A stretch of 64,000 bases of DNA from Candidatus Woesebacteria bacterium GW2011_GWB1_39_10 (GCA_000993205.1 LBVU01000004.1:124113-188112), one strand, 5' to 3'; shown: positions 14,698 through 54,079, counted from the first letter of the stretch. The notes: generated by a model not told the origin, from the sequence alone. Numbers and translations: made by a program.

Positions 14698-15645
14698 CTA
14701 TTTTCTAAGTAAACCAATGCCTGTTTCTATATCAATTTTGGCTTTCCAGGAAATTATCTTTTGTGCAAGGTGGCTATCGGAATATTTCCTTCTTTCTTCA
14801 TATTCCCCCCGGGGGTTGGGACGGATGTATATCGTCTTCCCTCCAATTATTCCAACCAGATCGTTTACAGAAACTTCTTTACCAAAACCGATATTCAATA
14901 TTATGTTTTTACCTTTTACAAGCGGGTTTTTCATCGCCTTATAATTTGCGGCAACTACATCATCAATATATGTATAATCTCTTGTTTGTTTCCCGTCACC
15001 AAAAACCGTCAGATTTTCATCCCGATCGGAAGACTTAAGAAACTTACCGATTACCAATGAATATTCTCCCGTATCGGGCTGCCTTTTGCCATAAACATTA
15101 AAATATCTAAGGGAGGCAACCCTAAGCCCGAATTTATCTGCATAAAATGTGCAATACATTTCAGACATCAGTTTTTGGATTGCATAATGAGAAATGGGAT
15201 TCGGGATCATCTTTTCATTCATCTTGGCAATTTTTTGCAATCCATAAACGCTTGATGATGATGAAAATATAAATTTTTCCACTTGTGTAACTTTGGCCGC
15301 TTCAAGCATTGAAAGCGTCGCTCTAACGTTCGCCTCGTGAGTGCCGACGGGATCATCTACCGATCTTAATATTCTGGGAAGGGCGGCAACATGATGAATT
15401 GTCGCAGGTTTAATTTTTGCCACCAGTTCAGAAACTTTTTTTGCATTGGTCAAATCAACCAGAACAAAATTAGCTTTTGGATTCACGAATTCCCTTCTTC
15501 CTGAAGAAAGATTGTCAAACACATAAACCTTGTAACCCTTCTCTATGAGAAAGTCTACAAGGTTGCTGCCGATAAAACCTGCGCCGCCTGTCACAAGGAC
15601 ACAAGGATTAGAAACTTTCGAGTAATTTTTCATATTGAAGCGCAA
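14698..15645 (-). CDS. NAD-dependent epimerase/dehydratase (extended SDR, UDP-hexose 4-epimerase-like)
   Basis: VLVTGGAGFIGSNLVDFL Rossmann motif, SSSSVYG, and catalytic YxxxK (YAIQK). The likely start is the internal Met at MKNYS. Confidence 0.85.
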   Translation of the reverse strand: MRFNMKNYSKVSNPCVLVTGGAGFIGSNLVDFLIEKGYKVYVFDNLSSGRREFVNPKANFVLVDLTNAKKVSELVAKIKPATIHHVAALPRILRSVDDPVGTHEANVRATLSMLEAAKVTQVEKFIFSSSSSVYGLQKIAKMNEKMIPNPISHYAIQKLMSEMYCTFYADKFGLRVASLRYFNVYGKRQPDTGEYSLVIGKFLKSSDRDENLTVFGDGKQTRDYTYIDDVVAANYKAMKNPLVKGKNIILNIGFGKEVSVNDLVGIIGGKTIYIRPNPRGEYEERRKYSDSHLAQKIISWKAKIDIETGIGLLRK

Positions 15646-19467: not shown

Positions 19468-20803
19468 TTTTAGAATGTCTAAATTTAGCCAGAACCCAAA
19501 GGCCGGGAACTATAAAATTAAATATATTTCCTAAAAGTACGGCGTATGCGGCTCCCATAAAACCATAGTTTGATATAAGATACCATCCTGCACCAACGGT
19601 AATTAGAATGTTTCCGAAAGAAATAAAAACAAAAAGTTTCGGGTACTCAAAATAATAGAATATGGATGTATGGGCGGGAACTGATATCAAAAAGATCGCT
19701 TGAGCAAAAAGTAAAACAATAAAAGGACCGATTGCCTGTAAATAACTGCCCCCGTATAAGATCGGTATTATAAATTTTGACAAGGGTATCCCGACAGCGA
19801 TCCCAAAAATTGCCATAAAAATTGTAAAAATCTGAACTTTTTTGAGATACAACTTTGCCTTTAAATCTGAGTCAAATCCCGCAAGCTTGGGGGCTACAAC
19901 GGTACCAATAGCAAAGACGATCTGTGGAATAATACTGGAGAGCTGTAGTGCCGAAGAATAAATCCCGACATCATGCAGTGATAAAAGACTTGTTGAAAGT
20001 AATGTGTCAACCCTGCCTCCGAATGCTGCAACCAGTGTAAACAACGCAATCCAAATGTTATAACGGAAAAATTCACCGGCAACCTCTTTTTCATTTTCAA
20101 CATCAAAGAATTTAGGCAAAAACATGAGTCCCGCCAAAAAACCCAAAAAAGGAACCAAAATATACACGCTCAAAAAAGTGTTTGCACTCAAGAAACCAAA
20201 ATAGATAAGAGCCAAGGTTATCAAAAGGCGTATTAAATTTGTACCAATATTAACGCCATTCCAAATCCAGTATTTTTGAAGAGATTGGAGAGCGTATGTA
20301 GAAAAGGAAAAAAGTAAATAGCTTCCCACACCAATAAGAGCAAGGCGCATAGGAAAAATAAGTTCTGGTTTGGCAAAAAATCCATTTACAATCCCCGGCA
20401 CCAGGAACCAGCCTATGGATAAAACTGCAAGCCAGATCATAATCCGGACCTTCAGTGACAATTTTAGAAACTTGAATGCGCGAATCTTATCGGTATTTAT
20501 GTACTTACCTACAAATCGCACCATTCCGGTATCGCTGCCTACGTTGGCAATATCCCCAATGAGTGTTAGGATGGCAACAGAGACCGAAAAGGTTCCAAAA
20601 GCCGCCGGACCAAGTTGTCTTGCTAAAACAAAATAAAATACTAAGCCAAGAATTCCGTTTACAATAGTTCCGGATGATGTAATTAATGTCTGAGAAATAG
20701 TCTTTGTGGACAGAATTTCCTTTACTTTATCTAGATTTACGGTAAATCGCATATGCCAAGTATGACACAAGAAGCACTGAAATTGAACCCAAACTGATTC
20801 CAT
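19457..20803 (-). CDS. wzx: Wzx-type oligosaccharide flippase (MOP/PST superfamily polysaccharide biosynthesis protein)
   Basis: About 14 TM helices, glycine-rich hydrophobic profile, N-terminal ...TLITSSGTIVNGILGLVFYFVLARQLGPAAFG typical of the PST family. The probable true start is the internal MRFTVNLDKV (about 20752). Confidence 0.8.
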   Translation of the reverse strand: MESVWVQFQCFLCHTWHMRFTVNLDKVKEILSTKTISQTLITSSGTIVNGILGLVFYFVLARQLGPAAFGTFSVSVAILTLIGDIANVGSDTGMVRFVGKYINTDKIRAFKFLKLSLKVRIMIWLAVLSIGWFLVPGIVNGFFAKPELIFPMRLALIGVGSYLLFSFSTYALQSLQKYWIWNGVNIGTNLIRLLITLALIYFGFLSANTFLSVYILVPFLGFLAGLMFLPKFFDVENEKEVAGEFFRYNIWIALFTLVAAFGGRVDTLLSTSLLSLHDVGIYSSALQLSSIIPQIVFAIGTVVAPKLAGFDSDLKAKLYLKKVQIFTIFMAIFGIAVGIPLSKFIIPILYGGSYLQAIGPFIVLLFAQAIFLISVPAHTSIFYYFEYPKLFVFISFGNILITVGAGWYLISNYGFMGAAYAVLLGNIFNFIVPGLWVLAKFRHSKNEN

Positions 20804-23255
20804 TACTCAATTTTAAATTCTTCTCGCCCGTAAATTTAACCGTTACTTGATCAGCGTCTCCCAGATAAAATCCGTTTATCATAGAAAAAACCGGCAAATG
20901 CAGGTTGGATACATCGGATTCCCATCCGCGGTCAAAATTCTGAGTATAAATAAGCCAACTGTCATCGTCGCTTAACTGGTATTCATTTGTTAAACCACCA
21001 TTTTCTTTAATTGAAACGTCGTGCCATTCGGAAAGTGATGGGTTGGAATTATCTGAAATTCCAAAACGAGACATATACGCCTCAGCCTGTTTAATGGAAT
21101 CATTAAATTCACCTTCTGAAACAACAGCAATCGTATTTAAAACTTCCAAGTTCGTATCATTTTCAATCTCATATTCAAACTTGCCGGACTTTAAGGTTCT
21201 TTGTTCGAAATTCCATGTTAGTTTTTGCTGCTTTAAAGTCCCAGATCTTTTGGCTATTACATATTTTCCATCTTTCGGAATTTCAAAAATATAGTTAATT
21301 TTTTCTCCCTTTTTTGTAGAAAATGCCAATCCGCACCCAAAATCAAAATCCCTAAACTTATAACCTCGAATTAAAAGTTCATATTTATACTTAAGGTATT
21401 GATTAGAACTATAAATAGCCCATTCTGATTTTGAAGCATCGCCTACAAATTTGAAGTACCGTTGCAAAAAACTCATAGCAAGGTCTGTGGAATTACCTCC
21501 GTTCAATACTATTTTTAAAGAGTCCGGTCTAATTTTTTCAAATATTTTGGGATCAAATTTACCGCTCTCAGCGTAAACAGCTGTCGGAATTTTACTGGTA
21601 GGGATAATGTCGGACCCGACAATAAGTGCCAGTTTCTTTACCGAATAAACTTCCGGTCTTGGATCTTCAATCCTAAAAACCGGAATCTTTGTTCCCCAAT
21701 CTTCTTTTGTAAGTCCCGGAGTCTGTGAAACCAATTTGTTTATTTCCTCCCAATTTTTTACATCGTTCCTTGTCGGATAAAGATTGCGGGGGTCACCGGA
21801 CAATATAATATATTTAACACCAAATACTCTTAGCCAGTTTACAAAACCCTGATTATTCAAAAAATTGTAAGGGTCTTCACCCTCGTTAATGGAAGCAAAT
21901 GGTCTATACGACACAAGTTGGTTAGCACTAAGGGCTGGTTTAGCTGAAGTTTCGAAAGCAACCTGTGGTTTTTCGTTAAACCATAACGTCTTGAAATTAT
22001 CGTTCACCTGATTCAAATTGTTATATATTATCTGATAATCACTGCTTTCACGCCTTGCAGATAAATTAAAGTTCATTTTTCCGATAATCGCTGGGGAAAT
22101 TAGTAAAATAAGGTATAGGTAGACCGCAACAAATACGAACCGCTTTAAGTGAATATTTCTAAATAAATTACAGGCCAAGTCAACCGTATTCCCAATTAAA
22201 ATTCCCCCCAAAAGGACCATGGGAATAAAAAACTTGCTTGAATCCCTGAAAATAGAACCGAATGGAACCCTGTTTACAAAAAATTCATACCAACTTCCCA
22301 ACGGGGGCGCGCTTCCTTTGGAAACAAAGGCAAAAAATAAAAATATCAGGGAGAAAATATAATATTTTTTATCCACCTTCCTGAACATTAATCCGCCGAA
22401 CGCCAAAGCAGGAATAAGGGAAAAGTAAAAAAACGGCTGAACGACTTTACCAAAAATGTTAGACGGCCAGTGAGGCGCAAATAAAAACAAAGAATTAAGG
22501 AGCGACGAAAGTTGGAGTTCTGTAACTGAAGTACTAAGCCCCCCCACTCCACCTTTCATTATAGGCAAGAGCCAGGAAGCATTCACGGGAATTAAAAGAA
22601 TTCCGGCCAACATTAACCAGAACAAATTTTTAACCCGGACTTCTAAAATTTGCCACAAAAATATTACCAGAAAAGACAAGGTTCCGATGCGGGGATCAAT
22701 ATAACAAAGAGTAACAGTTGCAAAAAGAGCAAGGGCAAATTTATGGATTGAAAAATTATCAAGAAACCTTTTCCAAAAAAGAACCGTAAATGGAAAAACA
22801 CCATAACTAAGAGCTATTCCCACCTGTCCGCCATCTATCAATAAAATAAAATAAGTATTCAAAAGATAAAAGAGTGAAGAAAAGAATTGCACAGTTTTTG
22901 ACAATTTTAGATATCTGGTCAAAAAATAAGGACCAAACCCGGCAAGTATTACAGACGGAAAATAAAAAAGAATTCTGACAATTGCGTCGTTTCCCAATCC
23001 AAGATATTTATTAAGGGCTCCATAAATCACCATCATTGGAGAAAGCCAAAGAGCGAGATTTCTTCCGCCAAAATCCGTACCATTTTGGGACCAAATCGAA
23101 AGCCCCGAAACAAGTTCCTTCAATCCTTCGGGGTAAAAATACGGAGCATCTCCCCAAGCCAAATGCAGATTTCTAAAAAAAGATATAAAAACAAAAAAGG
23201 AAGGGGTCAAAATCAAAAATACATAAAACAAGTTATTTATATGCTTTTTATTCAT
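20727..23255 (-). CDS. Large polytopic membrane protein (842 aa): N-terminal multi-TM domain, large extracytoplasmic domain and C-terminal TM anchor. Candidate GT-C glycosyltransferase (YfhO/AftD-like architecture)
   Basis: Hydrophobic N-terminal roughly 400 aa with acidic loop HLAWGDAPYFYPEG. Roughly 400 aa hydrophilic domain. The C-terminus ends ...INGFYLGD...ISLGSISVLLVSYLAYAIYRK (a TM helix). Confidence 0.45.
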   Translation of the reverse strand: MNKKHINNLFYVFLILTPSFFVFISFFRNLHLAWGDAPYFYPEGLKELVSGLSIWSQNGTDFGGRNLALWLSPMMVIYGALNKYLGLGNDAIVRILFYFPSVILAGFGPYFLTRYLKLSKTVQFFSSLFYLLNTYFILLIDGGQVGIALSYGVFPFTVLFWKRFLDNFSIHKFALALFATVTLCYIDPRIGTLSFLVIFLWQILEVRVKNLFWLMLAGILLIPVNASWLLPIMKGGVGGLSTSVTELQLSSLLNSLFLFAPHWPSNIFGKVVQPFFYFSLIPALAFGGLMFRKVDKKYYIFSLIFLFFAFVSKGSAPPLGSWYEFFVNRVPFGSIFRDSSKFFIPMVLLGGILIGNTVDLACNLFRNIHLKRFVFVAVYLYLILLISPAIIGKMNFNLSARRESSDYQIIYNNLNQVNDNFKTLWFNEKPQVAFETSAKPALSANQLVSYRPFASINEGEDPYNFLNNQGFVNWLRVFGVKYIILSGDPRNLYPTRNDVKNWEEINKLVSQTPGLTKEDWGTKIPVFRIEDPRPEVYSVKKLALIVGSDIIPTSKIPTAVYAESGKFDPKIFEKIRPDSLKIVLNGGNSTDLAMSFLQRYFKFVGDASKSEWAIYSSNQYLKYKYELLIRGYKFRDFDFGCGLAFSTKKGEKINYIFEIPKDGKYVIAKRSGTLKQQKLTWNFEQRTLKSGKFEYEIENDTNLEVLNTIAVVSEGEFNDSIKQAEAYMSRFGISDNSNPSLSEWHDVSIKENGGLTNEYQLSDDDSWLIYTQNFDRGWESDVSNLHLPVFSMINGFYLGDADQVTVKFTGEKNLKLSNGISLGSISVLLVSYLAYAIYRKSR

Positions 23256-23412
23256 TTTTTGAATAATTAATAATTACTCCGATTACCAAAACAAAAAACA
23301 TATAATTCGATATTTTTATTGCCACTCCTGAATGGTTTGTAAAAAGTAAAAAACCTGTTACCAAATAATCTAGTAACACAAAAGCCAAAATATATTTTCC
23401 CATTATTTTCAT
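23248..23412 (-). CDS. Small hypothetical membrane protein (54 aa, 2 TM), not in the ORF track
   Basis: The reverse complement reads MKIMGKYILAFVLLDYLVTGFLLFTNHSGVAIKISNYMFFVLVIGVIINYSKNE*. A TATAAT box lies 10 nt upstream. Its stop overlaps the ATG of the 842-aa gene (ATGAATAA). It fills an otherwise 170-bp gap. Confidence 0.35.
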   Translation of the reverse strand: MKIMGKYILAFVLLDYLVTGFLLFTNHSGVAIKISNYMFFVLVIGVIINYSKNE

Positions 23413-23426
23413 TTTAACAAATTATA

Positions 23427-24230
23427 CTAAACCCCCTCCGTCCAATATCTGCCAGTATAAAAACGAAACACCATAAATGTAAAACCCTTTAACGCCTTGT
23501 AAAGATACCTTAACTTAAGCTTATTGCCTTTTTTTGCGTTTCCATACTTTACAGGAACCATTTTGTATTTCGCTCCAAGTTTTAACGAAAGTACTCTCAA
23601 TTCCGTTTGTACCAAATGCGGAACAATGGTTACAGAAACCCATTTTTCTATGTCTGACTTAGAAAATAGTTGTTTTAAAAATTTTGAAGAGAAGGCTTCA
23701 TAACCACTGGTTAAGTCGGACAGAGGTGGATATATCCCAAAAAAAACATTAGAAAGAGAAGTTCCGATTTTACTAATGATTACTCTTTGTATAGGTAAAT
23801 TTTTAAAACCACCCCCTCTTGAAAATCTCGTGGAAAATACACAATCACATTTTTCTTCGATCAGCCCTTTTAAAAAAATTGGGATCTTATTGGGATCGTG
23901 CATGGCCACGTCCATCTCTATAACATAATCTACTCCATCGGCAACCGCCCTTTCAAAACCTGACAGGTAGGATCTGGCAAACGTCAATTTTTTATTTTTT
24001 ATTAGTTTATGATTGGATATTACCTTTTTATACTTTTTAGAAAGCTTGATGACAAAGTTGTAACTTTCGATGGGTGTGTAATCATCGGTAGTAAAAACAA
24101 TCTCAAATTTACCGAAATATTTGGTTTTTGAAAATACTTTATATATATCTTCAACAGTCTTTTCTAACGATTTAAAGGTTTCTCTACCAACACACAAACA
24201 CACAGCAATTTTGGGTTTATTTTTATACAT
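23427..24230 (-). CDS. GT2 glycosyltransferase, DPM1-like
   Basis: KIAVCLCVGRETFKSL..., EMDVAMHDP (a D-x-D..H motif like the Dpm1 DAD motif), and YGNAKKGNKLKL. Confidence 0.65.
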   Translation of the reverse strand: MYKNKPKIAVCLCVGRETFKSLEKTVEDIYKVFSKTKYFGKFEIVFTTDDYTPIESYNFVIKLSKKYKKVISNHKLIKNKKLTFARSYLSGFERAVADGVDYVIEMDVAMHDPNKIPIFLKGLIEEKCDCVFSTRFSRGGGFKNLPIQRVIISKIGTSLSNVFFGIYPPLSDLTSGYEAFSSKFLKQLFSKSDIEKWVSVTIVPHLVQTELRVLSLKLGAKYKMVPVKYGNAKKGNKLKLRYLYKALKGFTFMVFRFYTGRYWTEGV

Positions 24231-25446
24231 GCAATACTTTCTTTGAAAAAGAGATCGCTTGTTCTACTGCAACATCCGAATTCACATGTTCCCATCTCCC
24301 CCATCTTCCAATTCCAAAAATTTTATTTTTCTCTCCCCATTTTAAAATATCTGCTATTATTTTATTTTTCCCGATAACATTTACTGGGTATGAATATTCA
24401 TTTGTCTGTGAAAAAATTTTACTCTTACCCTTATTCATTCTGGCAGCGTTCGTTTCTGTCCAATGCCCGCGGGATCCTGTGACGAAATTGTGTCTATGTA
24501 AAATTCTGTGAAATGAAACTTTTTCATCGGGAATATATGTCCAATGTGCAGGAGAATCGAAATTGGTATTAAAATAATCAACACGTATTGGTACATGTTT
24601 TAATTTAAGCATCTTTTTATTTATATTGACAGGGAAATTGGAAACCCTAGATAAGGTTGGCCAAGGAATTGTATTTACTACACACTCAGCTTTATATTTC
24701 TTATTTATGATTTTATTTTTAAAATCAAATGACTTTACCGAACAATTATATACGATATGACCTTCCATACTTTTGGCGATTTTTAACCAAACTTCGCCAT
24801 ACCCTCCAATTTTAGGGTAATAAAATTTTTTATGTGCCGGGATTCTACCTTTTGCCATTTTACTTAAACAACTTTCGATTATTTCTTCAAGCGACACGTC
24901 TGGAATTTTATTAAACCACGTAGTACTTAAATTTTTAAAATGGTCTCCCCACAATTTTTTGTTGTAGGGGATCATGTAATTTTTGGCAATTTCATCTCCA
25001 TATTTAAGATAGACCCACTTATGAAACTTTTTTACATTTGTTAATTTATTACGCGATACACTGGAAACTTTAAACAAAGACTTAAGGTAAATTACCTGAA
25101 GATCAATAGGTAAGTGCCATATGTGAGATTCAATCGGATAATCTATAAGTTGTCCGTGAATCGCTATTTTTGAAATTCTTTTATAAATGTTCCAATTTTT
25201 CTTCGGTAAAAAACGAAATATAAATTTTAATACTTCTTTATTCCTAACATCCAAAAAGTGCCCACCACCAATATCAAGTGGCGTATCATCTACAATTTTG
25301 CTTCTACACAGGCCCCCAGCCTCTTTCTCTTTTTCTAAAATAATAAATGACTTTTCTCCTCTATCTAACAACGATCTTCCAAGTGCAAGCCCCGAAGGCC
25401 CCGCACCAAGAATTAAATATTTGTATTCTTTGACTTTATTAACCAT
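24223..25446 (-). CDS. glf: UDP-galactopyranose mutase
   Basis: Alignment blocks against E. coli Glf: YLILGAGPSGL (FAD GxGxxG), YNKKLWG versus YTEKQWG, FYYPKIGGYGEVWLKIAKSM versus YQGIPVGGYTKLIEKM, EYSYPVN versus EPYYPVN, and GIGRWGRWEHVNSDVAVEQAI versus FGGRLAEYKYYDMHQVISAAL. Confidence 0.8.
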   Translation of the reverse strand: MVNKVKEYKYLILGAGPSGLALGRSLLDRGEKSFIILEKEKEAGGLCRSKIVDDTPLDIGGGHFLDVRNKEVLKFIFRFLPKKNWNIYKRISKIAIHGQLIDYPIESHIWHLPIDLQVIYLKSLFKVSSVSRNKLTNVKKFHKWVYLKYGDEIAKNYMIPYNKKLWGDHFKNLSTTWFNKIPDVSLEEIIESCLSKMAKGRIPAHKKFYYPKIGGYGEVWLKIAKSMEGHIVYNCSVKSFDFKNKIINKKYKAECVVNTIPWPTLSRVSNFPVNINKKMLKLKHVPIRVDYFNTNFDSPAHWTYIPDEKVSFHRILHRHNFVTGSRGHWTETNAARMNKGKSKIFSQTNEYSYPVNVIGKNKIIADILKWGEKNKIFGIGRWGRWEHVNSDVAVEQAISFSKKVLHV

Positions 25447-25650: not shown

Positions 25651-26019
25651 TTAGGAGCTTATAAACTTAATAATTACTATTACCAAAAAACCATAAATAT
25701 AATTACCGATCAATTCCGATAACGGCAACAGGCCAAGTGAATCAAAAAAATAGGAGATTATAAATAAACCGAAACAAAAATACAAAATCGTTTTCCAACC
25801 AATTTTAAATATCTGGAATAAACTAGTCAAAATTAAAAAAACAACCAATTCCTTCGTAAAAATTAAATTAAAATAAGGTAGCTGCGAAACTAACAGCCAA
25901 AAGGACATCGTAAATATAAAGAGAATTAAGCGAACCCTATTAATGTTTATCCACACAAAAGCTTTACTTAAATAACCATCTAATAAACTATCCAAATAAC
26001 CAGGTTTAATTTTTCTCAT
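25651..26019 (-). CDS. Small hypothetical integral membrane protein (122 aa, 3-4 TM)
   Basis: Hydrophobic segments LILFIFTMSFWLLV, VVFLILTSLFQIF and YFCFGLFIISYFF. 14-bp overlap with the upstream giant gene. Confidence 0.5.
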   Translation of the reverse strand: MRKIKPGYLDSLLDGYLSKAFVWININRVRLILFIFTMSFWLLVSQLPYFNLIFTKELVVFLILTSLFQIFKIGWKTILYFCFGLFIISYFFDSLGLLPLSELIGNYIYGFLVIVIIKFISS

Positions 26020-29000
26020 TTTTTATTGTTCGTACCCAAGCTATTAAATATAATATCGCCAATATTATTATCGAAGAGATCGAAATTTTTAGACCCTTGC
26101 TAAATAATTCTTGTGGCTGGTACACCAACAACAAATCATATTGTCTACCTCCTCCAGACAATAACCACCCATTTTCATAACCATTCACTGAAAAGTGATC
26201 TGTAATCGGAGTACCGTTCGCATCTGTAAGTTTCCACAGACCATTAAATGCTTGATTAAAAATCAAAACCATATCGCCATTAAATTTGTTTGTCGTAATA
26301 TTGTATCTTGTTGGATCTATTTTTTTGTAAGTGAGAGTTGTCGCTTCGACATTAATACTATTATTTTTAACTGCATAAATTTCCGGATTAAAAATCTCAA
26401 GAACATTTAATTTAACATTTTCGGGAATGGATCTGTCGTATCTACAAAGATAAATCAATGGAACGTTCGCTCCCACAGAAGGATCAAAAAAATACTTAAA
26501 CGAGTTGCCATCAGGGTTTAACGAAACATCCATTTCAATATCACCCCTTAAGAATTCATCTGTTGATTGATTTCTCTGGCTATTCTCTTTGATATATAGT
26601 CTCATGTTCGGTAAATAGATATCAGATGATAAGGTCAAAACGTAATTTCTGTATTTATTAAAATTATTGATTTTGCCTATTACGCATCCGCGAGTTCCTA
26701 AAGGAAAGTCCACCTCTTCTTTATTGATAACTTTAAATAGGTCTGGTAAATATTGAAAAATTAAATCTAACTCTCCGGTTTTAGGAAATTCCGCTGGATC
26801 AGTAAACATCCACTTTTTATCCTCAACGTTCTTGAGATTTAAGTTTTGACCGGTGCTCAACGCCATGTCTGACGGAATGACAACTCCACCTTTGTTGTCG
26901 CTGGGCAACGTAGCCTTATCGATAAGAAGACTGTACTGACCGCTGGACGGAAGACTAATATTGTAAATTTTATTCAAATTCCATTTCCCTCCGTCCCCTA
27001 TCAATCCATCATATTGTTTTTTTAACAATGTACTTTGCCAAAGGATTTTAAACATATTATTTTTAATATCCGATTTCTCATAACCAAAATTTGAATTACT
27101 TATATAATCTCTGAAATATCTCTGAATAGGATTCACTGTTTCGTAAATTCTGGAAGCAAAATAGAAATTTGATTTCAGAGAGTTTGACTTGAAAAGTATA
27201 TTATTTATATTTTCCAAATAGTTATTCAAATCATTTAATCCCAGGTTTATATATTTTTTATCGATCTGTAAATCAATCATCGACCTTATCTCGCTCAGTT
27301 TAGTCATCGCTAAACCTATATGCGCGGCAAGTCTTGAATTTTCATCATCGACACTCGACAATATTTTTTCATTTCTTTCTTTCTTGATCGCATAAAAAGG
27401 TGAATTGGGCAACACTCTTACAGGAGGAAGGTCTGCGTGTTTCCCTAAATTTTCGACAAGACATGATTCACAGTTTAGAGGATAATATTCCTGAAGAACC
27501 AACTTATCTAAACCGTTATTTACACTCTCTGAACTCAACCAATCTTTCGTGTTGTCTTTTGAGATTATAGGTTCTTTGGATATATATATATGATCCTTGG
27601 GAACTGAAAAAAAATTATTGACCAGTCTAAACGTATTATTTTCTTCTGTGTTTTTGATACGTAAAAGTGACCATGGTCCGACTGTTTTGACAAGTTTTAA
27701 CTCGTCGTTGTCAATAAAACTTTTTACTGCTGCAAAATATTCTTCGCTTACCTCACTATCCTCAGCCTGAAAATCACTTCTTATAAATAAATAGTTTATT
27801 CCGAGTTTTTTTGAGACATCAAAAAAAACAGGGCTTTTTTGCAATAAAAGCGCAAAGAGTTTGTTTATCTTGTCTGATTCGACGGAATTATTTATTACAT
27901 CGTTGACCATGAACGAACCGTTAGCAAACAATACAGACGGCAACGGGGAAAGGCTCCAATACCCCCAGGTATAATTATCATTACCCGATCCGCCATCAAA
28001 GGCCGGTAACATTAATGCCCTTCCGGTAAAATTTGTATCTTTTAGCCAATTGTTAAACTCAGTCGCATATTCAGGAACCTTTACAAGTGTGCTTTTATCC
28101 GGCTGCCATTTAAACAAAAAGTCCCGGTTAAACATTATAAAGTTATAAAATAACCACCCGACGGCAACCGTCAATACAAAAAGCGGGCCGGAAATGAGCA
28201 TCGTATTCTTTAATCTACGACCAATCAGATTGTTAATCTTTGAAAAAATAAATTCCCCCAGTATCGACAATGAATATGCAAGAAGAATTGAATAGGAAAT
28301 TATGAACGAGGTGGCAAATTTAAAATAAGGAGACCGGAATATCGAAAACCCCGGAATTTTTTCATATAAAGCGGTGTAGACAAATCCCAACGGGGAGTTT
28401 GTCCCGGCTGTAAAAAACATTGAAATAAGTAGTAAAAATAAAAAGAAGAAAATCAGATATTTTTTATCTTTTTCTTTAACAAATAACATACCGGAAAATG
28501 ATAATATCGGAAGCAAAAAACTGACTAATACCAATATGCGATTAGTCAAATATAATCCTGCATAAGAATATTCGGGATTTGGTAAACCGCCAGTCAAATA
28601 CCATTCCGGAACGCCCTGAAATCTAAATAGATTAATAAAAAAGGTCCCTCTGCTTATATAAATAAGCCATTCCTTTCCTGCTGCAATTGTTCCCTGTCCT
28701 ACAACAACTGCGTAATCTGAGCTAATTAATATAGAAATAAAAGGCAAGATCGAATACATATTAAGCAAAACAAAAAAAACAAAACTTAAAAGACAGAAGA
28801 TTAAAGTTCTTCTAAAATAAGAAAGGTCTTTTTCCTTTTTCGCAATTATTATGGCAAATAGCAAATAAACCATTCCTGCAACAAATAAACTGCCATAAAG
28901 AGGTAAACCTAACCAGCTACCGCCATTAAAAATGGAAAAAATAACGGAAAAAATAATCGAACTTCTTAAAACCGGTTTTTTCCTGTCAAACAATATCCCC

Positions 29001-29497
29001 AAGGCAAATGTCAGGAAAAGAAGAATGACACAAACTAGTTCATACTTTGCTCTCTCTAAAATAAATATCGATTGGAATATGAAAAAATTAAAAGTTAAAA
29101 ATAATGGGAAAAAATATGGAACAAGTCTTCCCAATTTTTGTTTCAGCGAATATGAAAAAATAGAAGAAAAAATAAAAAGCATACTTAACCAAAAAAACAC
29201 CGCAACTTGATTTCCGGCGAAAGAACTTGTCCCAAATAGAGACAAAGCGTAATCAATTGAGTGGAGCATTACACTCCCAAAATGCGGTGAGTTGTCAACT
29301 CCAAAATCAATACGGTCATCCCAAGCAAAAAATCTCGTTTTTAAAAAACTTTTCGCGTCTAATGCAAGACCTGAATCGTGTCCCGCAACCACATAACCCG
29401 AGGGAACCCACATCTTGGTCAAAAACCATATTCCGATTAAAGCCACGGCAACATAAACCAGATAATGTACCAGCTCTTTGTTAAAAAGGTTTTTCAT
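26006..29497 (-). CDS. Giant polytopic membrane protein (1163 aa): N-terminal GT-C-like transmembrane domain, roughly 650-aa extracytoplasmic domain and C-terminal TM anchor. Candidate novel GT-C glycosyltransferase (AftD/YfhO-like architecture)
   Basis: The N-terminal roughly 480 aa are highly hydrophobic, with the acidic loop FFAWDDRIDFGVDNSPHFG. The long hydrophilic region is rich in N/K/S. The C-terminus ...VNGYENGWLLSGGGRQYDLLLVYQPQ...ISISSIIILAILYLIAWV is a TM helix. Confidence 0.45.
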   Translation of the reverse strand: MKNLFNKELVHYLVYVAVALIGIWFLTKMWVPSGYVVAGHDSGLALDAKSFLKTRFFAWDDRIDFGVDNSPHFGSVMLHSIDYALSLFGTSSFAGNQVAVFFWLSMLFIFSSIFSYSLKQKLGRLVPYFFPLFLTFNFFIFQSIFILERAKYELVCVILLFLTFALGILFDRKKPVLRSSIIFSVIFSIFNGGSWLGLPLYGSLFVAGMVYLLFAIIIAKKEKDLSYFRRTLIFCLLSFVFFVLLNMYSILPFISILISSDYAVVVGQGTIAAGKEWLIYISRGTFFINLFRFQGVPEWYLTGGLPNPEYSYAGLYLTNRILVLVSFLLPILSFSGMLFVKEKDKKYLIFFFLFLLLISMFFTAGTNSPLGFVYTALYEKIPGFSIFRSPYFKFATSFIISYSILLAYSLSILGEFIFSKINNLIGRRLKNTMLISGPLFVLTVAVGWLFYNFIMFNRDFLFKWQPDKSTLVKVPEYATEFNNWLKDTNFTGRALMLPAFDGGSGNDNYTWGYWSLSPLPSVLFANGSFMVNDVINNSVESDKINKLFALLLQKSPVFFDVSKKLGINYLFIRSDFQAEDSEVSEEYFAAVKSFIDNDELKLVKTVGPWSLLRIKNTEENNTFRLVNNFFSVPKDHIYISKEPIISKDNTKDWLSSESVNNGLDKLVLQEYYPLNCESCLVENLGKHADLPPVRVLPNSPFYAIKKERNEKILSSVDDENSRLAAHIGLAMTKLSEIRSMIDLQIDKKYINLGLNDLNNYLENINNILFKSNSLKSNFYFASRIYETVNPIQRYFRDYISNSNFGYEKSDIKNNMFKILWQSTLLKKQYDGLIGDGGKWNLNKIYNISLPSSGQYSLLIDKATLPSDNKGGVVIPSDMALSTGQNLNLKNVEDKKWMFTDPAEFPKTGELDLIFQYLPDLFKVINKEEVDFPLGTRGCVIGKINNFNKYRNYVLTLSSDIYLPNMRLYIKENSQRNQSTDEFLRGDIEMDVSLNPDGNSFKYFFDPSVGANVPLIYLCRYDRSIPENVKLNVLEIFNPEIYAVKNNSINVEATTLTYKKIDPTRYNITTNKFNGDMVLIFNQAFNGLWKLTDANGTPITDHFSVNGYENGWLLSGGGRQYDLLLVYQPQELFSKGLKISISSIIILAILYLIAWVRTIKNEKN

Positions 29498-48253: not shown

Positions 48254-48907
48254 ATGAACTTGAAACTTTTTATTTGTGGTTTACCCGAAAATTTAAGATA
48301 TCCATCGGCGAAAGTTATTTCAAATATGGAAGTCTTATTGTGGAATATTAAAAATAATCCTGTTCCGGTTCCTCACAAAATAAAGGTCAGGATAATTTCC
48401 GGTTATGCACAAAAGTTCCATACTCAAATATTAATCGAGACTGGAACATACTTAGGCCAAACTGTTGACGATCTAAAAAATGAATTTAATAAAATTTATT
48501 CAATTGAATTAGATAAAACTCTCTACAGGAATGCAAGGAAAATGTTTTCCAAAAACAGAAATATAAAAATCATTCAGGGCGATAGCACCACCATTCTTCC
48601 CAATTTAATTAGAGAGGCAAAAAAACCCACCCTATTTTGGTTAGATGCGCACTATTCCGGTGGAATTACTGCAAAAGGGAAAAAAGAAACTCCAATACTT
48701 AACGAGCTTAAATCGATTTCAAAAAGTAAAATTAAAAATCATGTAATCTTAATTGATGATGCTCGTAACTTTACAGGATTGTGTGATTATCCCACAATTA
48801 AGGAAATAAAATTATTTGTTTCTAGATATTTCCCCCATTACAAAATTGAAATAAAAGACGATATAATCCGAATCTATCCTTATGAGAAAAACATTCTGGA
48901 AAAATAA
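48254..48907 (+). CDS. Class I SAM-dependent O-methyltransferase, TylF/CmcI (Methyltransf_24)-like
   Basis: ILIETGTYLGQT glycine motif and FWLDAHYSGG, comparable to the Methyltransf_24 D-x-D-H-s-y-e block. Immediately upstream of fcl. Confidence 0.6.
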   Translation: MNLKLFICGLPENLRYPSAKVISNMEVLLWNIKNNPVPVPHKIKVRIISGYAQKFHTQILIETGTYLGQTVDDLKNEFNKIYSIELDKTLYRNARKMFSKNRNIKIIQGDSTTILPNLIREAKKPTLFWLDAHYSGGITAKGKKETPILNELKSISKSKIKNHVILIDDARNFTGLCDYPTIKEIKLFVSRYFPHYKIEIKDDIIRIYPYEKNILEK

Positions 48908-49841
48908 AGTTGTGGTTGTAACCGGCGGAAATGGTTTTTTGGGAAGCCATTTGGTCAAAAAACTTTTGAAGTTAGAGCCGAAGAAAATATTTGTTCCTGA
49001 AAGAAATAAATTTGATTTGAGAGATTATGAATCTTGCCTTAAGGCATTTAAAAATGCAGATATTGTTATTCATTTGGCTGGAAACGTGGGTGGAATCGGA
49101 TACAACCAAGACAGACCCGCAGAACTTTTCGATGACAATATTTTAATGGGAGTAAATACAATGCGTGCCGCAAGGGCCTGCAATGTGAAAAAAGTCGTTA
49201 TAATCGGCACCATTTGTGCTTATCCAAAATTTACTCCGATTCCCTTTAAAGAAAAAGATCTTTGGAACGGGTATCCTGAGGAGACGAATGCTCCTTATGG
49301 ACTTGCAAAAAAAATGTTACTAGTTCAATCGCAAGCATACAGACAACAATATGGCTTTAATTCTATTTATCTCCTGCCCGTAAATTTATACGGTCCTGAA
49401 GACAATTTTAACCCAAATTCATCTCATGTTATTCCGGCTCTTATCAAAAAATTCGTTGAAGCTAAAGATAAAAAGTCAAAAGAAGTTGTTATTTGGGGGT
49501 CTGGTAAACCAACTAGAGAGTTCCTTTACGTGGGGAATGCAGCAGAGGGGATATTAATGGCAACTGAAAAATACGACAAACCCAATCCTGTCAATCTTGG
49601 CTCCGGCTTTGAGATCTCTATTAAAAACCTTGCCAAAACAATTTCAGAGATTGTCGGATTTGAGGGAAAAATTGTTTTTGACAAAACAAAACCTGATGGC
49701 CAACCAAGAAGAAGGCTGGATGTAGGCAGGGCCAAAAAAGAATTCGGATTTAAAGCAAAAACAAATTTTAAAACAGGACTAAGCAATACTATAGATTGGT
49801 ACTTAAAATCGAATCTATATCAAAATCCCGACCTAGCTTAA
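48882..49841 (+). CDS. fcl: GDP-L-fucose synthase (GDP-4-keto-6-deoxy-D-mannose 3,5-epimerase/4-reductase)
   Basis: Blockwise match to E. coli Fcl: [24 protein letters not shown] versus [39 protein letters not shown] versus VVWGSGTPMREFLHV, and [16 protein letters not shown] versus FDASKPDGTPRKLLDV. Confidence 0.9.
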   Translation: [319 protein letters not shown]

Positions 49842-53578: not shown

Positions 53579-54079
53579 ATGACATTTTTTAAATTACGTC
53601 TTTTGGCAGCATTTTCAGTCTTTGCCCTCTTCCTGTCAATTACCCCCACTGTTTTTGCCCAATCTCCGGAATCTTTCGGACTCACACCTCAAAAAACTCT
53701 TCCTGGTAGTTCCGGATATTTGTTCAAAAGGGTAAAGGAAAAAGTAACAAAAGTGTTTAAGTTTTCTAAAAACTCTAAATACCAATTCCAAAAAGGATTG
53801 CTTGAAAGAAGAGTTTCCGAATATGTCAGCCTTGTTGAAAAAAATGAACAATCACAAATTTCAGATGCTTCGCAAAGGTTGGCTTTCGAGGCAGGAATTC
53901 TTGCTGAAAGTTCGGTTGAAGAGTCCAAAGAAAAGAAAACTGAAATCATTAGCTTGTTTGAAAAATACAAACCAATTCTTGGAAAAATGAGGGACAACTT
54001 CCCTGCCAACACCCCTTTCTGGCTCTTGTCCCAACAAGACATTGATACAATGAATATCTTAACCGAAAAACTCAAGTAA
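53579..54079 (+). CDS. Secreted hypothetical protein with cleavable signal peptide
   Basis: MTFFKLRLLAAFSVFALFLSITPTVFA|QSP shows an n-h-c signal peptide with an AxA-like cleavage site. The mature part is predicted helical and K/E-rich. The overlapping minus-strand ORF 53689..54096 is rejected. Confidence 0.6.
   Translation: MTFFKLRLLAAFSVFALFLSITPTVFAQSPESFGLTPQKTLPGSSGYLFKRVKEKVTKVFKFSKNSKYQFQKGLLERRVSEYVSLVEKNEQSQISDASQRLAFEAGILAESSVEESKEKKTEIISLFEKYKPILGKMRDNFPANTPFWLLSQQDIDTMNILTEKLK

What the first reader, a model, noticed from the sequence alone, without database searches (positions are those of the whole stretch)
24223..25446. UDP-galactopyranose mutase: galactofuranose in the product glycan
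The Glf assignment is strong from several conserved blocks. Galf is absent from the host and is a hallmark of mycobacterial arabinogalactan, some O-antigens and S-layer glycans. Here glf is sandwiched between the two giant GT-C-like membrane proteins, and it sits near GtrB/DPM1-like synthases that could generate lipid-linked furanose donors.
Basis: established knowledge. Interest (0 to 1): 0.5.

Follow-up and report, generated by a model that had tools for sequence, protein, structure and literature searches.

The report
UGM-like mutase in lipid-sugar cassette
The gene encodes a flavoenzyme with the fold and catalytic residues of UDP-galactopyranose mutase, but every substrate-contacting residue differs, and it belongs to a widespread uncharacterised clade wired to a lipid-phosphate-sugar synthase and a membrane glycosyltransferase, so it probably makes a lipid-linked furanose sugar that need not be galactofuranose.

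Summary
The ORF at 24223-25446 (-), 407 aa, is real and is the only UGM-like gene in the window. Its AlphaFold model (pLDDT 92.8) matches eukaryotic-type UDP-galactopyranose mutases (TM 0.86-0.88, 18-21% identity). The catalytic set (His loop GGH63, Y161, R314, E331, Y353, R381) is invariant in 193 relatives.

It is not a UGM orthologue. It scores 47.8 bits against TIGR00031 (cut-off 303.75) and has no Pfam GLF domain. Six substrate-contact positions read D/E/Y/K/H/H, where characterised eukaryotic UGM and some bacterial cousins read F/Q/F/R/N/Y. Both uracil contacts are switched.

In 49 of 77 loci from many phyla the gene lies within two genes of a TM-less GT2 resembling Dol-P-Man synthase or ArnC, and 42 of these also have a large multi-TM protein nearby. 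In the window the GT2 start overlaps the flavoprotein stop, and both flanking giants are AftD-like GT-C enzymes.

GDP-L-fucose genes (Gmd+Fcl) accompany the family in about 14 of 77 loci, and no neighbour scores like a genuine GalE.

Best reading: a pyranose/furanose mutase feeding a polyprenyl-phosphate-furanose donor for extracytoplasmic glycosylation. The sugar is unresolved, and Galf is possible but not favoured.

The parts
24223..25446 (-). UGM-superfamily flavoenzyme (407 aa), a predicted NDP-sugar pyranose/furanose mutase of unknown specificity. Its signature at positions 66/106/157/180/205/387 is D-E-Y-K-H-H.
   Evidence: ORF. Pfam gives only NAD_binding_8 and Amino_oxidase at the N-terminus. 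TIGR00031 scores 47.8 bits against a cut-off of 303.75. AF2 model pLDDT 92.8. Foldseek top hits are eukaryotic UGMs, TM 0.86-0.88. Residue conservation in 193 relatives. Signature comparison.
23427..24230 (-). TM-less GT2 (267 aa) of the polyprenyl-monophosphate-sugar synthase type (Dol-P-Man synthase / ArnC / AglJ-like). It is the conserved partner of the flavoprotein, and its ATG overlaps the flavoprotein stop (ATGTATAA).
   Evidence: Junction sequence. Partner-family profile against PDB: P. furiosus DPMS 5mlz 1.1e-38 over 2-223 of 238 positions, ArnC 1e-22. NCBIfam: AglJ in 37/38 members, Dol-P-hexose transferase in 33/38. Highest score among window ORFs with the partner profile, which it seeded. 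Directly adjacent in 42 of 77 loci.
23248..23412 (-). Conserved 54-aa mini-protein with two hydrophobic helices, between the GT2 and the GT-C. Role unknown; a membrane tether for the TM-less GT2 is only a guess.
   Evidence: Called as a gene on the source contigs. Translations from the window and from the 71%-relative locus L091 are alike.
20727..23255 (-). GT-C-fold membrane glycosyltransferase (842 aa) in the canonical cassette slot. It has an N-terminal multi-TM domain, an outer beta-sandwich domain resembling CBM6/35, and a C-terminal TM helix.
   Evidence: AF2 model pLDDT 86.2. Foldseek PDB: AftD 6wby E 1.2e-8, then AglB, STT3, PglB, ArnT, DPY19 and PMT. Weak Pfam PTPS_related hit. Syntenic orthologue in L091 (696 bits).
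25651..26019 (-). 122-aa multi-TM protein immediately upstream of the flavoprotein, in the position where Wolfebacteria carry an EamA/SMR-like 115-aa protein. Candidate flippase, with no detectable homology.
   Evidence: No Pfam hit at E<=1. Only 12-23% identity to the EamA proteins of L005 and L007. Orthologue in L091. EamA protein at the same position in L005.
26006..29497 (-). AftD-like GT-C membrane protein (1163 aa) upstream of the module, syntenic in the closest relative. It may be a second user of the lipid-linked donor.
   Evidence: Pfam GT-C_AftD 27.1 bits (cut-off 26), residues 315-611. Orthologue of 1153 aa in L091 at the same place (1184 bits).
48882..49841 (+). Fcl-like SDR (GDP-4-keto-6-deoxyhexose 3,5-epimerase/4-reductase family). 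It may supply the 6-deoxy-sugar substrate. The link is tentative.
   Evidence: NF047922 GDP-L-fucose synthase 293.5 bits, full length, below the cut-off of 500. Its orthologue (447 bits) lies three genes upstream of the flavoprotein homologue in L092.

Best explanation
The gene encodes a soluble FAD enzyme of the UGM superfamily that most likely contracts the pyranose ring of a nucleotide-sugar to the furanose by the UGM mechanism: reduced flavin N5 attacks C1, the nucleotide leaves, the ring opens and recloses, and the nucleotide returns. It belongs to a distinct, highly conserved bacterial clade related to eukaryotic-type UGMs. In this clade the catalytic residues are kept but all substrate-contact residues are changed, so its substrate is probably not UDP-Galp. 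The NDP-furanose is then handed to the translationally coupled, TM-less Dol-P-Man-synthase-like GT2, which loads it on a polyprenyl phosphate. The lipid-linked furanose is flipped and used outside the membrane by the adjacent AftD-like GT-C enzyme(s).

Shown here: the fold, residue conservation and residue switches, conserved synteny, and the family identity of the GT2 and the GT-C. Inferred: mutase activity, the order of steps, flipping, the acceptor, and the sugar. The sugar is unresolved for this window. At family level GDP-L-fucose (giving L-fucofuranose) is the leading candidate. UDP-Gal, UDP-L-Ara or a 6-deoxy-HexNAc remain possible.
For: Fold. AF2 pLDDT 92.8. The best PDB matches are T. 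cruzi and A. fumigatus UGM (E 6e-32, TM 0.86-0.88), ahead of bacterial UGM (0.70), protoporphyrinogen oxidase (0.73) and an Arthrobacter oxidoreductase listed elsewhere as putrescine oxidase (0.63). The family profile against PDB gives UGM at 1.4e-44.

Catalytic residues. H63, Y161, R314 (=AfR327), E331, Y353 (=Y419) and R381 (=R447) are each present in 193 of 193 relatives (residue roles from PMC3322874).

Specificity switch. K180 is 193/193, H387 191/193, H205 193/193, E106 193/193 and D66 191/193. Cousins found by the deep search carry F-Q-F-R-N-Y, identical to AfUGM. The two uracil-contact positions co-vary: Q/F 59, E/Y 52, Q/Y 0.

Cassette. The GT2 partner is directly adjacent in 42 of 77 non-redundant loci and within two genes in 49. 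A protein of at least 470 aa with at least 6 TM lies within three genes in 54, and both features occur in 42. These loci span Patescibacteria, Bacillota, Pseudomonadota, Desulfobacterota, Bacteroidota, Verrucomicrobiota, Nitrospirota and Chloroflexota. The GT2 family resembles DPMS and ArnC. The window's stop and start codons overlap. The 842-aa protein has a GT-C fold closest to AftD, and the 1163-aa protein hits GT-C_AftD. EamA (ArnE/F-like) genes sit inside the cassette in Wolfebacteria and Paenibacillus.

NDP-sugar rather than lipid substrate. 28 of 77 loci have the flavoprotein without the GT2.

GDP-Fuc clue. Gmd and/or Fcl lie within 10 kb in about 14 of 77 loci from at least 5 phyla, with compact operons (ManC)-Gmd-Fcl-[EamA]-FLAV-GT2-GT-C. 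By contrast RmlB occurs in 4 loci and a full Rml set in 2-3.

Precedent. Flavin mutases of this superfamily accept other nucleotide-sugars: CDP-D-Fuc (PMC12369002) and UDP-L-Ara (PMC10615251).
Against: No activity data exist for any member of this clade. The residue map rests on HMMER alignments, not on a superposed complex. Lys for Arg182 and His for Tyr453 are conservative and could still bind a diphosphate; AfUGM R182K keeps about 10% of kcat/Km, so UDP-Galp cannot be excluded. The window has no Gmd, only an Fcl-like SDR 23 kb away, plus GalE-like and NDP-sugar dehydrogenase genes that would also fit UDP-Gal or UDP-L-Ara. Gmd/Fcl are absent from the fetched flanks of about 80% of loci. No flippase could be identified in the window. 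The membrane partners of different loci are not detectably homologous to each other or to the window's. The co-variation statistic ignores phylogenetic non-independence.
Confidence: 0.55

Rival explanations
1. One reading: a genuine UDP-galactopyranose mutase (Glf) that makes UDP-Galf, so that the glycan built by this locus contains galactofuranose.
For: It has the UGM fold and a complete catalytic apparatus. Eukaryote-type residues R91, N163, W315 and Y317 are kept. K180 is a conservative change, and AfUGM R182K is still active. A GalE-like epimerase lies at 14698-15645 (180 bits, cut-off 262). Many loci carry no dedicated sugar-nucleotide genes near the gene, as expected for a housekeeping precursor such as UDP-Gal or UDP-Glc.
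Against: It fails TIGR00031 (47.8 vs 303.75 bits) and has no PF03275. All six substrate-contact positions differ from characterised eukaryotic UGM, including both uracil contacts and the Tyr and Arg that are invariant in the five UGMs tabulated in PMC3322874, and these differences are fixed in 191-193 of 193 relatives. Relatives with the exact UGM signature form separate groups. No neighbour scored like a genuine GalE in 49 cassette loci (best hit E 1e-48), whereas Gmd/Fcl recur. No GlfT-named GT2 is present.
Confidence: 0.17
2. The enzyme acts after the GT2. It contracts the ring of a polyprenyl-phosphate-linked pyranose, with the lipid phosphate as leaving group, analogous in position to DprE1/DprE2 acting on decaprenyl-P-ribose.
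For: It is tightly and translationally coupled to the polyprenyl-P-sugar synthase. The two altered residues (R182 to K, Y453 to H) are diphosphate contacts in UGM, which could reflect a monophosphate substrate.
Against: 28 of 77 loci have the flavoprotein without the GT2. The residues lining the nucleoside pocket (E106, Y157, M158, Y161, N162, K164) are invariant and polar or aromatic rather than forming a lipid groove. The protein has no hydrophobic segment. No flavin mutase acting on a lipid-linked sugar was found in the literature searched.
Confidence: 0.1
3. It is not a mutase but an FAD-dependent oxidoreductase of the amine-oxidase / protoporphyrinogen-oxidase type that modifies a sugar or lipid in the pathway, as database names suggest.
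For: The only Pfam hits are NAD_binding_8 and Amino_oxidase. Sources name relatives 'protoporphyrinogen oxidase', 'amine oxidoreductase' or 'FAD-dependent oxidoreductase'. PPO and amine oxidases appear lower in the fold search.
Against: The Pfam hits cover only the Rossmann N-terminus (residues 12-76). Whole-fold similarity is clearly best to UGM (TM 0.86-0.88 against 0.63-0.73). The UGM-specific His loop and the R327, Y419, R447 and E373 equivalents are all invariant.
Confidence: 0.08

Closest known systems
Eukaryotic-type UDP-galactopyranose mutase (A. fumigatus UgmA, PDB 3UTE/3UKH; T. cruzi UGM, 4DSG/4DSH)
   Same: Same three-domain fold (TM 0.86-0.88). Shares the FAD Rossmann motif, the GGH63 histidine loop, R91, M159, Y162, N163, W315, Y317, R327, E373, Y419, R447 and N457.
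   Different: Only 18-21% identity. It is about 100 residues shorter, lacking the eukaryotic inserts. F66 is Asp, Q107 is Glu, F158 is Tyr, R182 is Lys, N207 is His and Y453 is His, all fixed in the clade. It is bacterial and embedded in a GT2 plus GT-C cassette.
Classical bacterial Glf family and its specificity variants (E. coli and K. pneumoniae Glf; C. jejuni UDP-L-Arap mutase HS15.16; CDP-D-Fucp mutase HS41.17)
   Same: The presumed chemistry is the same: a reduced-flavin pyranose/furanose mutase. This family shows that the superfamily accepts nucleotides and sugars other than UDP-Gal (PMC12369002, PMC10615251).
   Different: Much more distant: E 4e-7, N-terminal 175 residues only, and 22% identity over 181 aa to HS41.17. 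These enzymes hand NDP-furanoses to cytoplasmic glycosyltransferases, not to a polyprenyl-P synthase.
Three-component extracytoplasmic glycosylation systems (GtrA/GtrB/GtrX; ArnC/ArnE-F/ArnT; CsbB/GtcA/YfhO; S. mutans PgfS/PgfM)
   Same: A GT2 polyprenyl-P-sugar synthase plus a GT-C transferase, with a small EamA/SMR-type protein in Wolfebacteria and Paenibacillus relatives.
   Different: These systems transfer pyranoses and have no mutase. Here a UGM-like flavoenzyme is a fixed fourth component upstream of the GT2. The GT2 lacks the C-terminal TM helices of GtrB and ArnC. No flippase is recognisable in the window.
Decaprenyl-phospho-arabinofuranose pathway with Aft/Emb GT-C transferases (Corynebacteriales); related polyprenyl-P-D-Araf route for P. 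aeruginosa pilin (the latter from my own knowledge)
   Same: The logic is a polyprenyl-monophosphate furanose donor used by GT-C enzymes. The window's two GT-Cs are closest to AftD.
   Different: In that pathway the furanose comes from PRPP via a UbiA-type transferase and DprE1/DprE2 epimerisation, not from an NDP-sugar by ring contraction. None of those genes were seen next to the flavoprotein.
GT75 NDP-pyranose mutases MtdL and Hyg20 (GDP-L-Fucp to GDP-L-Fucf, GDP-L-Galp to GDP-L-Galf)
   Same: They would share a substrate and product if the GDP-L-fucose hypothesis is right (PMC9937993).
   Different: Unrelated fold and mechanism: Mn2+-dependent with no flavin. They are found in actinomycete antibiotic clusters.

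Membership tests
UDP-galactopyranose mutase (Glf/UGM; TIGR00031, Pfam PF03275, EC 5.4.99.9) | Reaches the curated family models (TIGR00031 cut-off 303.75 bits; Pfam GLF domain) | tested here: not met
   TIGR00031 scores 47.8 bits, residues 8-182 only. PF03275 is not among the Pfam hits at E<=1.
UDP-galactopyranose mutase (Glf/UGM; TIGR00031, Pfam PF03275, EC 5.4.99.9) | Three-domain UGM fold with an N-terminal FAD Rossmann motif (GxGxxG plus an acidic residue) | tested here: met
   Foldseek TM 0.86-0.88 to 4DSH and 3UKK. G14/G16/G19 and E38 are conserved in 190-193 of 193 relatives.
UDP-galactopyranose mutase (Glf/UGM; TIGR00031, Pfam PF03275, EC 5.4.99.9) | Histidine loop over flavin N5 (AfUGM G61-G62-H63) | tested here: met
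   G61, G62 and H63 are each 193/193. Residue role from PMC3322874.
UDP-galactopyranose mutase (Glf/UGM; TIGR00031, Pfam PF03275, EC 5.4.99.9) | Two invariant arginines that hold the diphosphate and sugar (AfUGM R182 and R327; KpUGM R174 and R280) | tested here: not met
   R314 (=R327) is 193/193, but the R182 position is Lys in 193/193.
UDP-galactopyranose mutase (Glf/UGM; TIGR00031, Pfam PF03275, EC 5.4.99.9) | Invariant tyrosines on the diphosphate (AfUGM Y419 and Y453) | tested here: not met
   Y353 (=Y419) is 193/193. The Y453 position is His in 191/193.
UDP-galactopyranose mutase (Glf/UGM; TIGR00031, Pfam PF03275, EC 5.4.99.9) | Uracil and galactose contacts of eukaryotic-type UGM (Q107, F158, F66, N207) | tested here: not met
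   E106, Y157, D66 and H205 are fixed in the clade. Cousins with F-Q-F-R-N-Y exist as separate groups. Positions 106 and 157 co-vary.
UDP-galactopyranose mutase (Glf/UGM; TIGR00031, Pfam PF03275, EC 5.4.99.9) | Interconverts UDP-Galp and UDP-Galf with reduced FAD | not testable with these tools
   Requires an enzyme assay.
Polyprenyl-monophosphate-sugar synthases (GT2: DPMS/DPM1, ArnC, GtrB, AglJ, PpgS), for ORF 23427-24230 | GT-A catalytic domain most similar to Dol-P/Und-P sugar synthases | tested here: met
   The partner-family profile matches P. furiosus DPMS at 1.1e-38 over 2-223 of 238 positions, and ArnC at 1e-22. AglJ matches 37/38 members, Dol-P-hexose transferase 33/38 and PpgS 19/38. 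The window member alone is weak: AglJ 21.9 bits and PF00535 20.9 bits.
Polyprenyl-monophosphate-sugar synthases (GT2: DPMS/DPM1, ArnC, GtrB, AglJ, PpgS), for ORF 23427-24230 | Membrane anchoring by C-terminal TM helices (GtrB, ArnC, archaeal DPMS) or by partner subunits (human DPM1 with DPM2/3) | tested here: inconclusive
   No TM segment is found in the 228-270-aa partners. A conserved 54-aa two-helix ORF follows the gene in the window and in L091, but its role is untested.
GT-C glycosyltransferases (AftD/Emb, ArnT, PglB/STT3, PMT), for ORFs 20727-23255 and 26006-29497 | GT-C multi-TM fold with an extracytoplasmic domain | tested here: met
   842-aa model pLDDT 86.2; top PDB hits are AftD (E 1.2e-8), then AglB, STT3, PglB and ArnT. 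The 1163-aa protein hits Pfam GT-C_AftD at 27.1 bits, cut-off 26.
GT-C glycosyltransferases (AftD/Emb, ArnT, PglB/STT3, PMT), for ORFs 20727-23255 and 26006-29497 | Catalytic acidic residue in the first extracytoplasmic loop | tested here: inconclusive
   A nearly invariant G35-D36 follows the first helix of the 842-aa family. It was not mapped onto a solved GT-C active site.
Three-component extracytoplasmic glycosylation system (synthase, flippase, GT-C) | A dedicated small flippase (GtrA, or EamA/SMR-type ArnE/F) | tested here: inconclusive
   EamA proteins sit inside the cassette in L005 and L007. The window's 122-aa TM protein at the same position has no Pfam hit and is 12-23% identical to them.

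The most novel reading that the evidence does not exclude
This clade is a flavin-dependent GDP-L-fucopyranose (or GDP-6-deoxy-L-galacto-sugar) mutase. If so, it is a second, evolutionarily independent route to GDP-L-fucofuranose besides the Mn-dependent GT75 enzymes. Together with its partner GT2 it would make a polyprenyl-phosphate-L-fucofuranose donor for GT-C enzymes. That would be a new class of lipid-linked furanose donor, widespread from CPR bacteria to gut Lachnospiraceae, and the first produced by ring contraction rather than from PRPP.
Probability: 0.25. Interest if true: 0.75.

Novelty: new variant of a known kind. Interest (0 to 1): 0.6.

Why it matters
Furanose sugars are absent from animals and mark microbial surfaces. 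The two routes considered here are NDP-furanoses used inside the cell (UGM family, GT75) and polyprenyl-P-arabino- or ribofuranose built from PRPP. A conserved cassette that couples a UGM-like mutase directly to a polyprenyl-phosphate-sugar synthase and a GT-C enzyme would join these two worlds: ring contraction followed by lipid loading for use outside the membrane. The clade holds thousands of sequences, is 45-50% identical across distant phyla including abundant gut Firmicutes, and is misnamed 'protoporphyrinogen oxidase' or 'amine oxidase' in databases. Assigning it would therefore correct many annotations. The six-residue signature gives a testable code for substrate specificity within the UGM superfamily. 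It also shows that bacterial relatives of the 'eukaryotic-type' UGM are numerous, which bears on the origin of the fungal and trypanosomatid enzymes that are drug targets.

Tried and rejected
1. Membrane partners. Sequence-profile links between the window's large membrane proteins and the partners in other loci (phmmer clustering, hmmsearch, hhalign) found nothing above noise. Pfam sees none of them. I therefore relied on a fold prediction for the 842-aa protein.

2. The 122-aa TM protein. No support was found for assigning it as an EamA or GtrA flippase.

3. tblastn against annotated plasmids gave one distant Streptomyces hit at 24% identity, which was uninformative.

5. Literature searches for a lipid-linked Galf donor, for this clade, or for UGM in CPR bacteria found nothing. 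The library is incomplete, so this is absence of evidence only.

6. C. jejuni comparators. I could not obtain sequences of the predicted GDP-6-deoxy-heptopyranose mutases HS10.16 and HS41.15. Only UniProt ids F2X785 and Q5M6T6 are in the supplement.

7. A first residue tabulation of the distant cousins was wrong because hmmalign --trim shifted the numbering. It was redone and verified on the window's own row.

8. The promoter/terminator scan was not above shuffled expectation, so no claim is made.

9. The mafft --auto profile iteration timed out once and was rerun with faster settings.

10. Sister-group contexts (L089, L090) showed ordinary polysaccharide loci and added little.
Full report
**What is in the sequence.** A 407-aa ORF occupies exactly 24223..25446 on the minus strand. 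It is the only ORF in the window that matches a profile of its own family. All neighbours on that strand belong to a very large glycan-assembly locus, listed here from upstream to downstream:
- a methyltransferase;
- a 1163-aa membrane protein that passes the Pfam GT-C_AftD threshold (27.1 bits, cut-off 26);
- a 122-aa multi-TM protein;
- the flavoprotein;
- a 267-aa GT2;
- a 54-aa two-helix mini-ORF;
- an 842-aa membrane protein;
- a Wzx-type flippase;
- further GTs and methyltransferases.

The exact protein occurs on groundwater-metagenome contigs (PRJNA268031). The closest named relative of the neighbouring 842-aa gene is Candidatus Woesebacteria at 81% identity.

**Is it a UGM? Family-level tests.**
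- Pfam sees only the N-terminal Rossmann part (NAD_binding_8, Amino_oxidase; residues 12-76) and no GLF domain.
- NCBIfam's UGM equivalog TIGR00031 scores 47.8 bits against a cut-off of 303.75, and only over residues 8-182. The best hits are the 'hypothetical protein' models PRK07208.1-x, also far below their cut-offs.
- Against PDB sequences the best matches are eukaryotic-type UGMs: A. fumigatus at 2.6e-23 and T. cruzi at 1.8e-17. Classical bacterial UGMs reach only about 4e-7. A family profile raises the A. fumigatus match to 1.4e-44.
- An AlphaFold2 model built on 40 homologues is confident (pLDDT 92.8, pTM 0.90). It superposes best on T. cruzi and A. fumigatus UGM (E 6e-32, TM 0.86-0.88, 18-21% identity). 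This is clearly better than on bacterial UGM (0.70), protoporphyrinogen oxidase (0.73) or the Arthrobacter oxidoreductase 3rha, listed as putrescine oxidase (0.63).

The protein is thus a member of the UGM structural superfamily but not of the curated UGM family.

I used the active-site table of van Straaten et al. (PMC3322874), the contact table in PMC3624792 and the HMMER alignments to map the window protein onto AfUGM. I then tabulated each position in 193 distinct relatives.

The residues that perform or support flavin-N5 chemistry are all present in 193 of 193 relatives:
- G61-G62-H63 (the histidine loop);
- Y161 (=Y162);
- R314 (=R327, whose Ala mutant is inactive);
- E331 (probably =E373);
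- Y353 (=Y419);
- R381 (=R447);
- N389 (=N457).

Eukaryote-type residues R91, M159, N163, W315 and Y317 are also kept.

The substrate-contact residues are replaced, and the replacements are fixed:

| AfUGM residue | Role in AfUGM | Window clade | Frequency |
|---|---|---|---|
| R182 | invariant in the five UGMs tabulated in PMC3322874 | Lys180 | 193/193 |
| Y453 | invariant in the same five UGMs; diphosphate contact | His387 | 191/193 |
| N207 | galactose H-bond | His205 | 193/193 |
| F66 | redox switch next to the sugar | Asp66 | 191/193 |
| Q107 | uracil H-bond | Glu106 | 193/193 |
| F158 | uracil stacking | Tyr157 | 192/193 |

The catalytic machinery is intact, but the substrate-recognition set is different.

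**The wider superfamily.** An exhaustive profile search of 1.84 billion representatives found 8445 proteins at E<=1e-3 and 890 at E<=1e-30. I aligned 117 full-length representatives to the family HMM. A first attempt was mis-numbered and was then corrected. Discrete signatures appear at the six positions 66/106/157/180/205/387:
- D-E-Y-K-H-H, the window's clade;
- N-E-Y-K-H-Y (21 representatives);
- F-E-Y-R-Q-Y (10);
- F-Q-F-R-N-Y (9), identical to A. fumigatus UGM;
- H-Q-F-R-N-Y (9).

The catalytic quintet is intact in nearly all of them. The two uracil-contact positions co-vary without exception in one direction: Q/F 59, E/Y 52, E/F 6, Q/Y 0. The Fisher test is nominally 7e-27, but the sequences are related, so this is not a true probability. 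I read this as a nucleobase-specificity switch separating a UDP-type group from an 'E/Y' group that includes the window protein. That reading is an inference.

There is precedent for other nucleotides and sugars in flavin mutases. The C. jejuni CDP-D-fucopyranose mutase HS41.17 (PMC12369002) and the UDP-L-arabinopyranose mutase (PMC10615251) are both of the classical Glf type. HS41.17 is only 22% identical to the window protein over 181 residues.

**Genomic context: a conserved cassette.** The family is about 400 aa long and 45-53% identical between Patescibacteria, Geobacter, Paenibacillus and Eubacteriales. Sources call it 'NAD(P)-binding protein', 'protoporphyrinogen oxidase' or 'amine oxidoreductase', never UGM. 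I fetched 80 loci from named genomes plus four from protein look-ups, called ORFs, and built a profile of the GT2 partner. Among 77 non-redundant loci:
- a soluble GT2 of at most 300 aa matching that profile (at least 100 bits) is directly adjacent in 42, mostly at +1 on the same strand (41 hits at +1);
- the partner lies within two genes in 49;
- a protein of at least 470 aa with at least 6 TM segments lies within three genes in 54;
- both features are present in 42.

These counts are conservative, because several 'negative' Lachnospiraceae loci show what look like split GT2 ORFs. The carriers span at least eight phyla.

The partner family's best solved relative is Pyrococcus Dol-P-Man synthase (1.1e-38, covering positions 2-223 of 238), followed by ArnC. 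NCBIfam hits are AglJ (37/38 members), Dol-P-hexose transferase (33/38), PpgS and ArnC. The partner is therefore a polyprenyl-monophosphate-sugar synthase, here without TM helices.

In the window its ATG overlaps the flavoprotein's stop codon (ATGTATAA). The 842-aa protein in the canonical downstream slot was modelled (pLDDT 86.2). It is a GT-C enzyme whose best solved match is the arabinofuranosyltransferase AftD (E 1.2e-8), followed by AglB, STT3, PglB and ArnT. It also has a CBM6/35-like outer domain. Wolfebacteria and Paenibacillus cassettes also contain 115-aa EamA/SMR-type proteins resembling ArnE/F.

The 71%-identical relative (L091) keeps the entire window arrangement: GT-C 1153 aa, small TM protein, flavoprotein, GT2, 54-aa ORF, GT-C 820 aa.

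The membrane partners of different lineages are not detectably homologous to one another. That is what one expects if the donor module is shared and the transferases differ with the acceptor.

**Which sugar?** Among flanking soluble proteins of the 49 cassette loci, the most frequent specific pathway is GDP-L-fucose. Across all 77 loci:
- true Gmd (at least 420 bits to a verified Gmd) occurs in 13, and Fcl in 13, about 14 loci in all;
- ManC occurs in 6;
- RmlB occurs in 4, and a full dTDP-rhamnose set in 2-3.

Ten Fcl neighbours were checked. All are full-length matches to GDP-L-fucose synthase at 458-532 bits (cut-off 500).

The operon orders are telling:
- Wolfebacteria: Gmd-Fcl-EamA-FLAV-GT2-GT-C;
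- Saccharibacteria: Gmd-Fcl-FLAV-GT2-GT-C;
- Paenibacillus: ManC-Gmd-Fcl-GT-C-FLAV-GT2-EamA, with a second EamA gene next in the source gene calls;
- several Bacillota: FLAV, a 12-TM protein, then Gmd-Fcl-ManC.

No neighbour scored like a genuine GalE (best hit E 1e-48). L-Fucose is 6-deoxy-L-galactose, so ring contraction is chemically natural. GDP-L-fucofuranose is known, but it is made by unrelated Mn-dependent GT75 enzymes (PMC9937993). FADH2-type GDP-6-deoxy-L-galacto-heptopyranose mutases have been predicted in C. jejuni but had not been characterised as of that 2023 paper (PMC10680097). I could not obtain their sequences.

For the window itself the evidence is thin:
- There is no Gmd.
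- An Fcl-like SDR lies at 48882-49841 (293 bits, below cut-off). Its orthologue lies three genes upstream of the flavoprotein in the 59% relative L092.
- There is a GalE-like SDR, a generic NDP-sugar dehydrogenase, and a PseB/FnlA-like dehydratase.

The sugar in this organism is therefore unresolved.

**Mechanism and rivals.**

*Best model (confidence 0.55).* An NDP-sugar pyranose/furanose mutase supplies the coupled synthase, which makes a polyprenyl-P-furanose for the AftD-like GT-C enzymes.

*Why an NDP-sugar rather than a lipid substrate.* 28 of 77 loci have the flavoprotein without the GT2, and the nucleoside-pocket residues are invariant and polar or aromatic. This argues that the substrate is a soluble nucleotide-sugar rather than the lipid-linked sugar (rival, 0.10).

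However, it requires that six fixed substitutions, including both uracil contacts, are neutral.

*A non-mutase oxidoreductase (0.08).* This is disfavoured by the fold ranking and the conserved UGM-specific residues.

**Comparison with what is known, and novelty.** In function the module resembles the three-component extracytoplasmic glycosylation systems (Gtr, Arn, CsbB/GtcA/YfhO). In donor type it resembles the decaprenyl-P-arabinofuranose/Aft system. It differs from the first by a dedicated mutase and a TM-less synthase, and from the second by deriving the furanose from an NDP-sugar rather than from PRPP. I found no description of the clade, of the cassette, or of a lipid-linked Galf or Fucf donor in the searchable library. 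That library is incomplete. I therefore rate it a new variant of a known kind, interest 0.6.

The window has ten GT2-type ORFs, and none matches a family named as a galactofuranosyltransferase. Four of them are polyprenyl-P-sugar-synthase types: 23427-24230; 13531-14697 (AglJ-like); 47290-48240 (PgfS/GtrB-like); 54079-55023 (ArnC-like). This fits a cell that does much of its glycosylation outside the membrane.

**Limits.** No member of the clade has been assayed. The residue correspondences come from sequence-profile alignments, not from a ligand complex. The locus sample is the best 80 tblastn hits and is rich in Lachnospiraceae. TM counts come from a simple hydropathy window. The Gmd/Fcl enrichment is judged against one internal control pathway only.

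Noticed in passing
window 23248-23412 (-); L091 12007-12171: A 54-aa ORF with two hydrophobic helices lies between the TM-less GT2 and the GT-C gene and overlaps the GT-C start. It is called as a gene on the source contigs and is conserved in the 71% relative. It could be a membrane tether for the synthase, as DPM2/DPM3 are for DPM1, but this is speculation.
   Followed up: partly
window 13531-14697 (-), 47290-48240 (+), 54079-55023 (+), plus 23427-24230 (-): There are four separate polyprenyl-phosphate-sugar-synthase-type GT2 genes (AglJ-like, PgfS/GtrB-like, ArnC-like, DPMS-like) in one 64-kb stretch. The same stretch holds at least six large multi-TM proteins, most of them Pfam orphans (1163, 842, 823, 657, 587 and 463 aa). 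This is an unusually heavy investment in extracytoplasmic glycosylation for a small CPR genome.
   Followed up: partly
window 48882-49841 (+); L092 3903-4853: An Fcl-like SDR scores 293 bits to GDP-L-fucose synthase (cut-off 500), next to the PgfS-like GT2. Its orthologue (447 bits) lies three genes upstream of the flavoprotein homologue in a related CPR contig, beside a DegT aminotransferase and a carbamoyltransferase.
   Followed up: partly
window 50834-52710 (-): A PseB/FnlA-like UDP-GlcNAc 4,6-dehydratase (364 bits, cut-off 407) sits next to a 295-aa SDR. This suggests a 6-deoxy-HexNAc pathway in the same locus.
   Followed up: no
window 20727-23255 (-), model residues ~420-810: The 842-aa GT-C has a large outer beta-sandwich region whose pieces resemble CBM6/CBM35 carbohydrate-binding modules. 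It ends in a long C-terminal TM helix (residues 810-841).
   Followed up: no
L014, L029, L031, L035, L039, L040, L049, L061, L063 (gene at +2 from the flavoprotein): In Betaproteobacteria, Desulfobacterota and Herpetosiphon the cassette is followed by a 325-365-aa protein with about 7 TM segments. In the Geobacter locus L006 a 365-aa Acyl_transf_3 protein lies one gene further on, after the GT-C. This suggests that the furanose-containing glycan is O-acylated in those lineages.
   Followed up: no
superfamily sample (proteins P0241-P0390): Bacterial or metagenomic proteins of 430-463 aa carry the exact A. fumigatus UGM six-residue signature (F-Q-F-R-N-Y). Relatives of the 'eukaryotic-type' UGM are thus numerous outside eukaryotes, if these representatives are prokaryotic. 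One of them, P0275, is on an NCBI genome-assembly contig (GCA_003554345.1) next to radical-SAM, malic-enzyme and Lon-protease genes.
   Followed up: partly
L015, L017, L022 (Lachnospiraceae MAGs), genes at +1 to +2 from the flavoprotein: Where the GT2 partner is expected, these loci show two or three short ORFs (92-168 aa). These may be frameshifted or split GT2 genes, or assembly errors. If so, the cassette frequency is underestimated.
   Followed up: no
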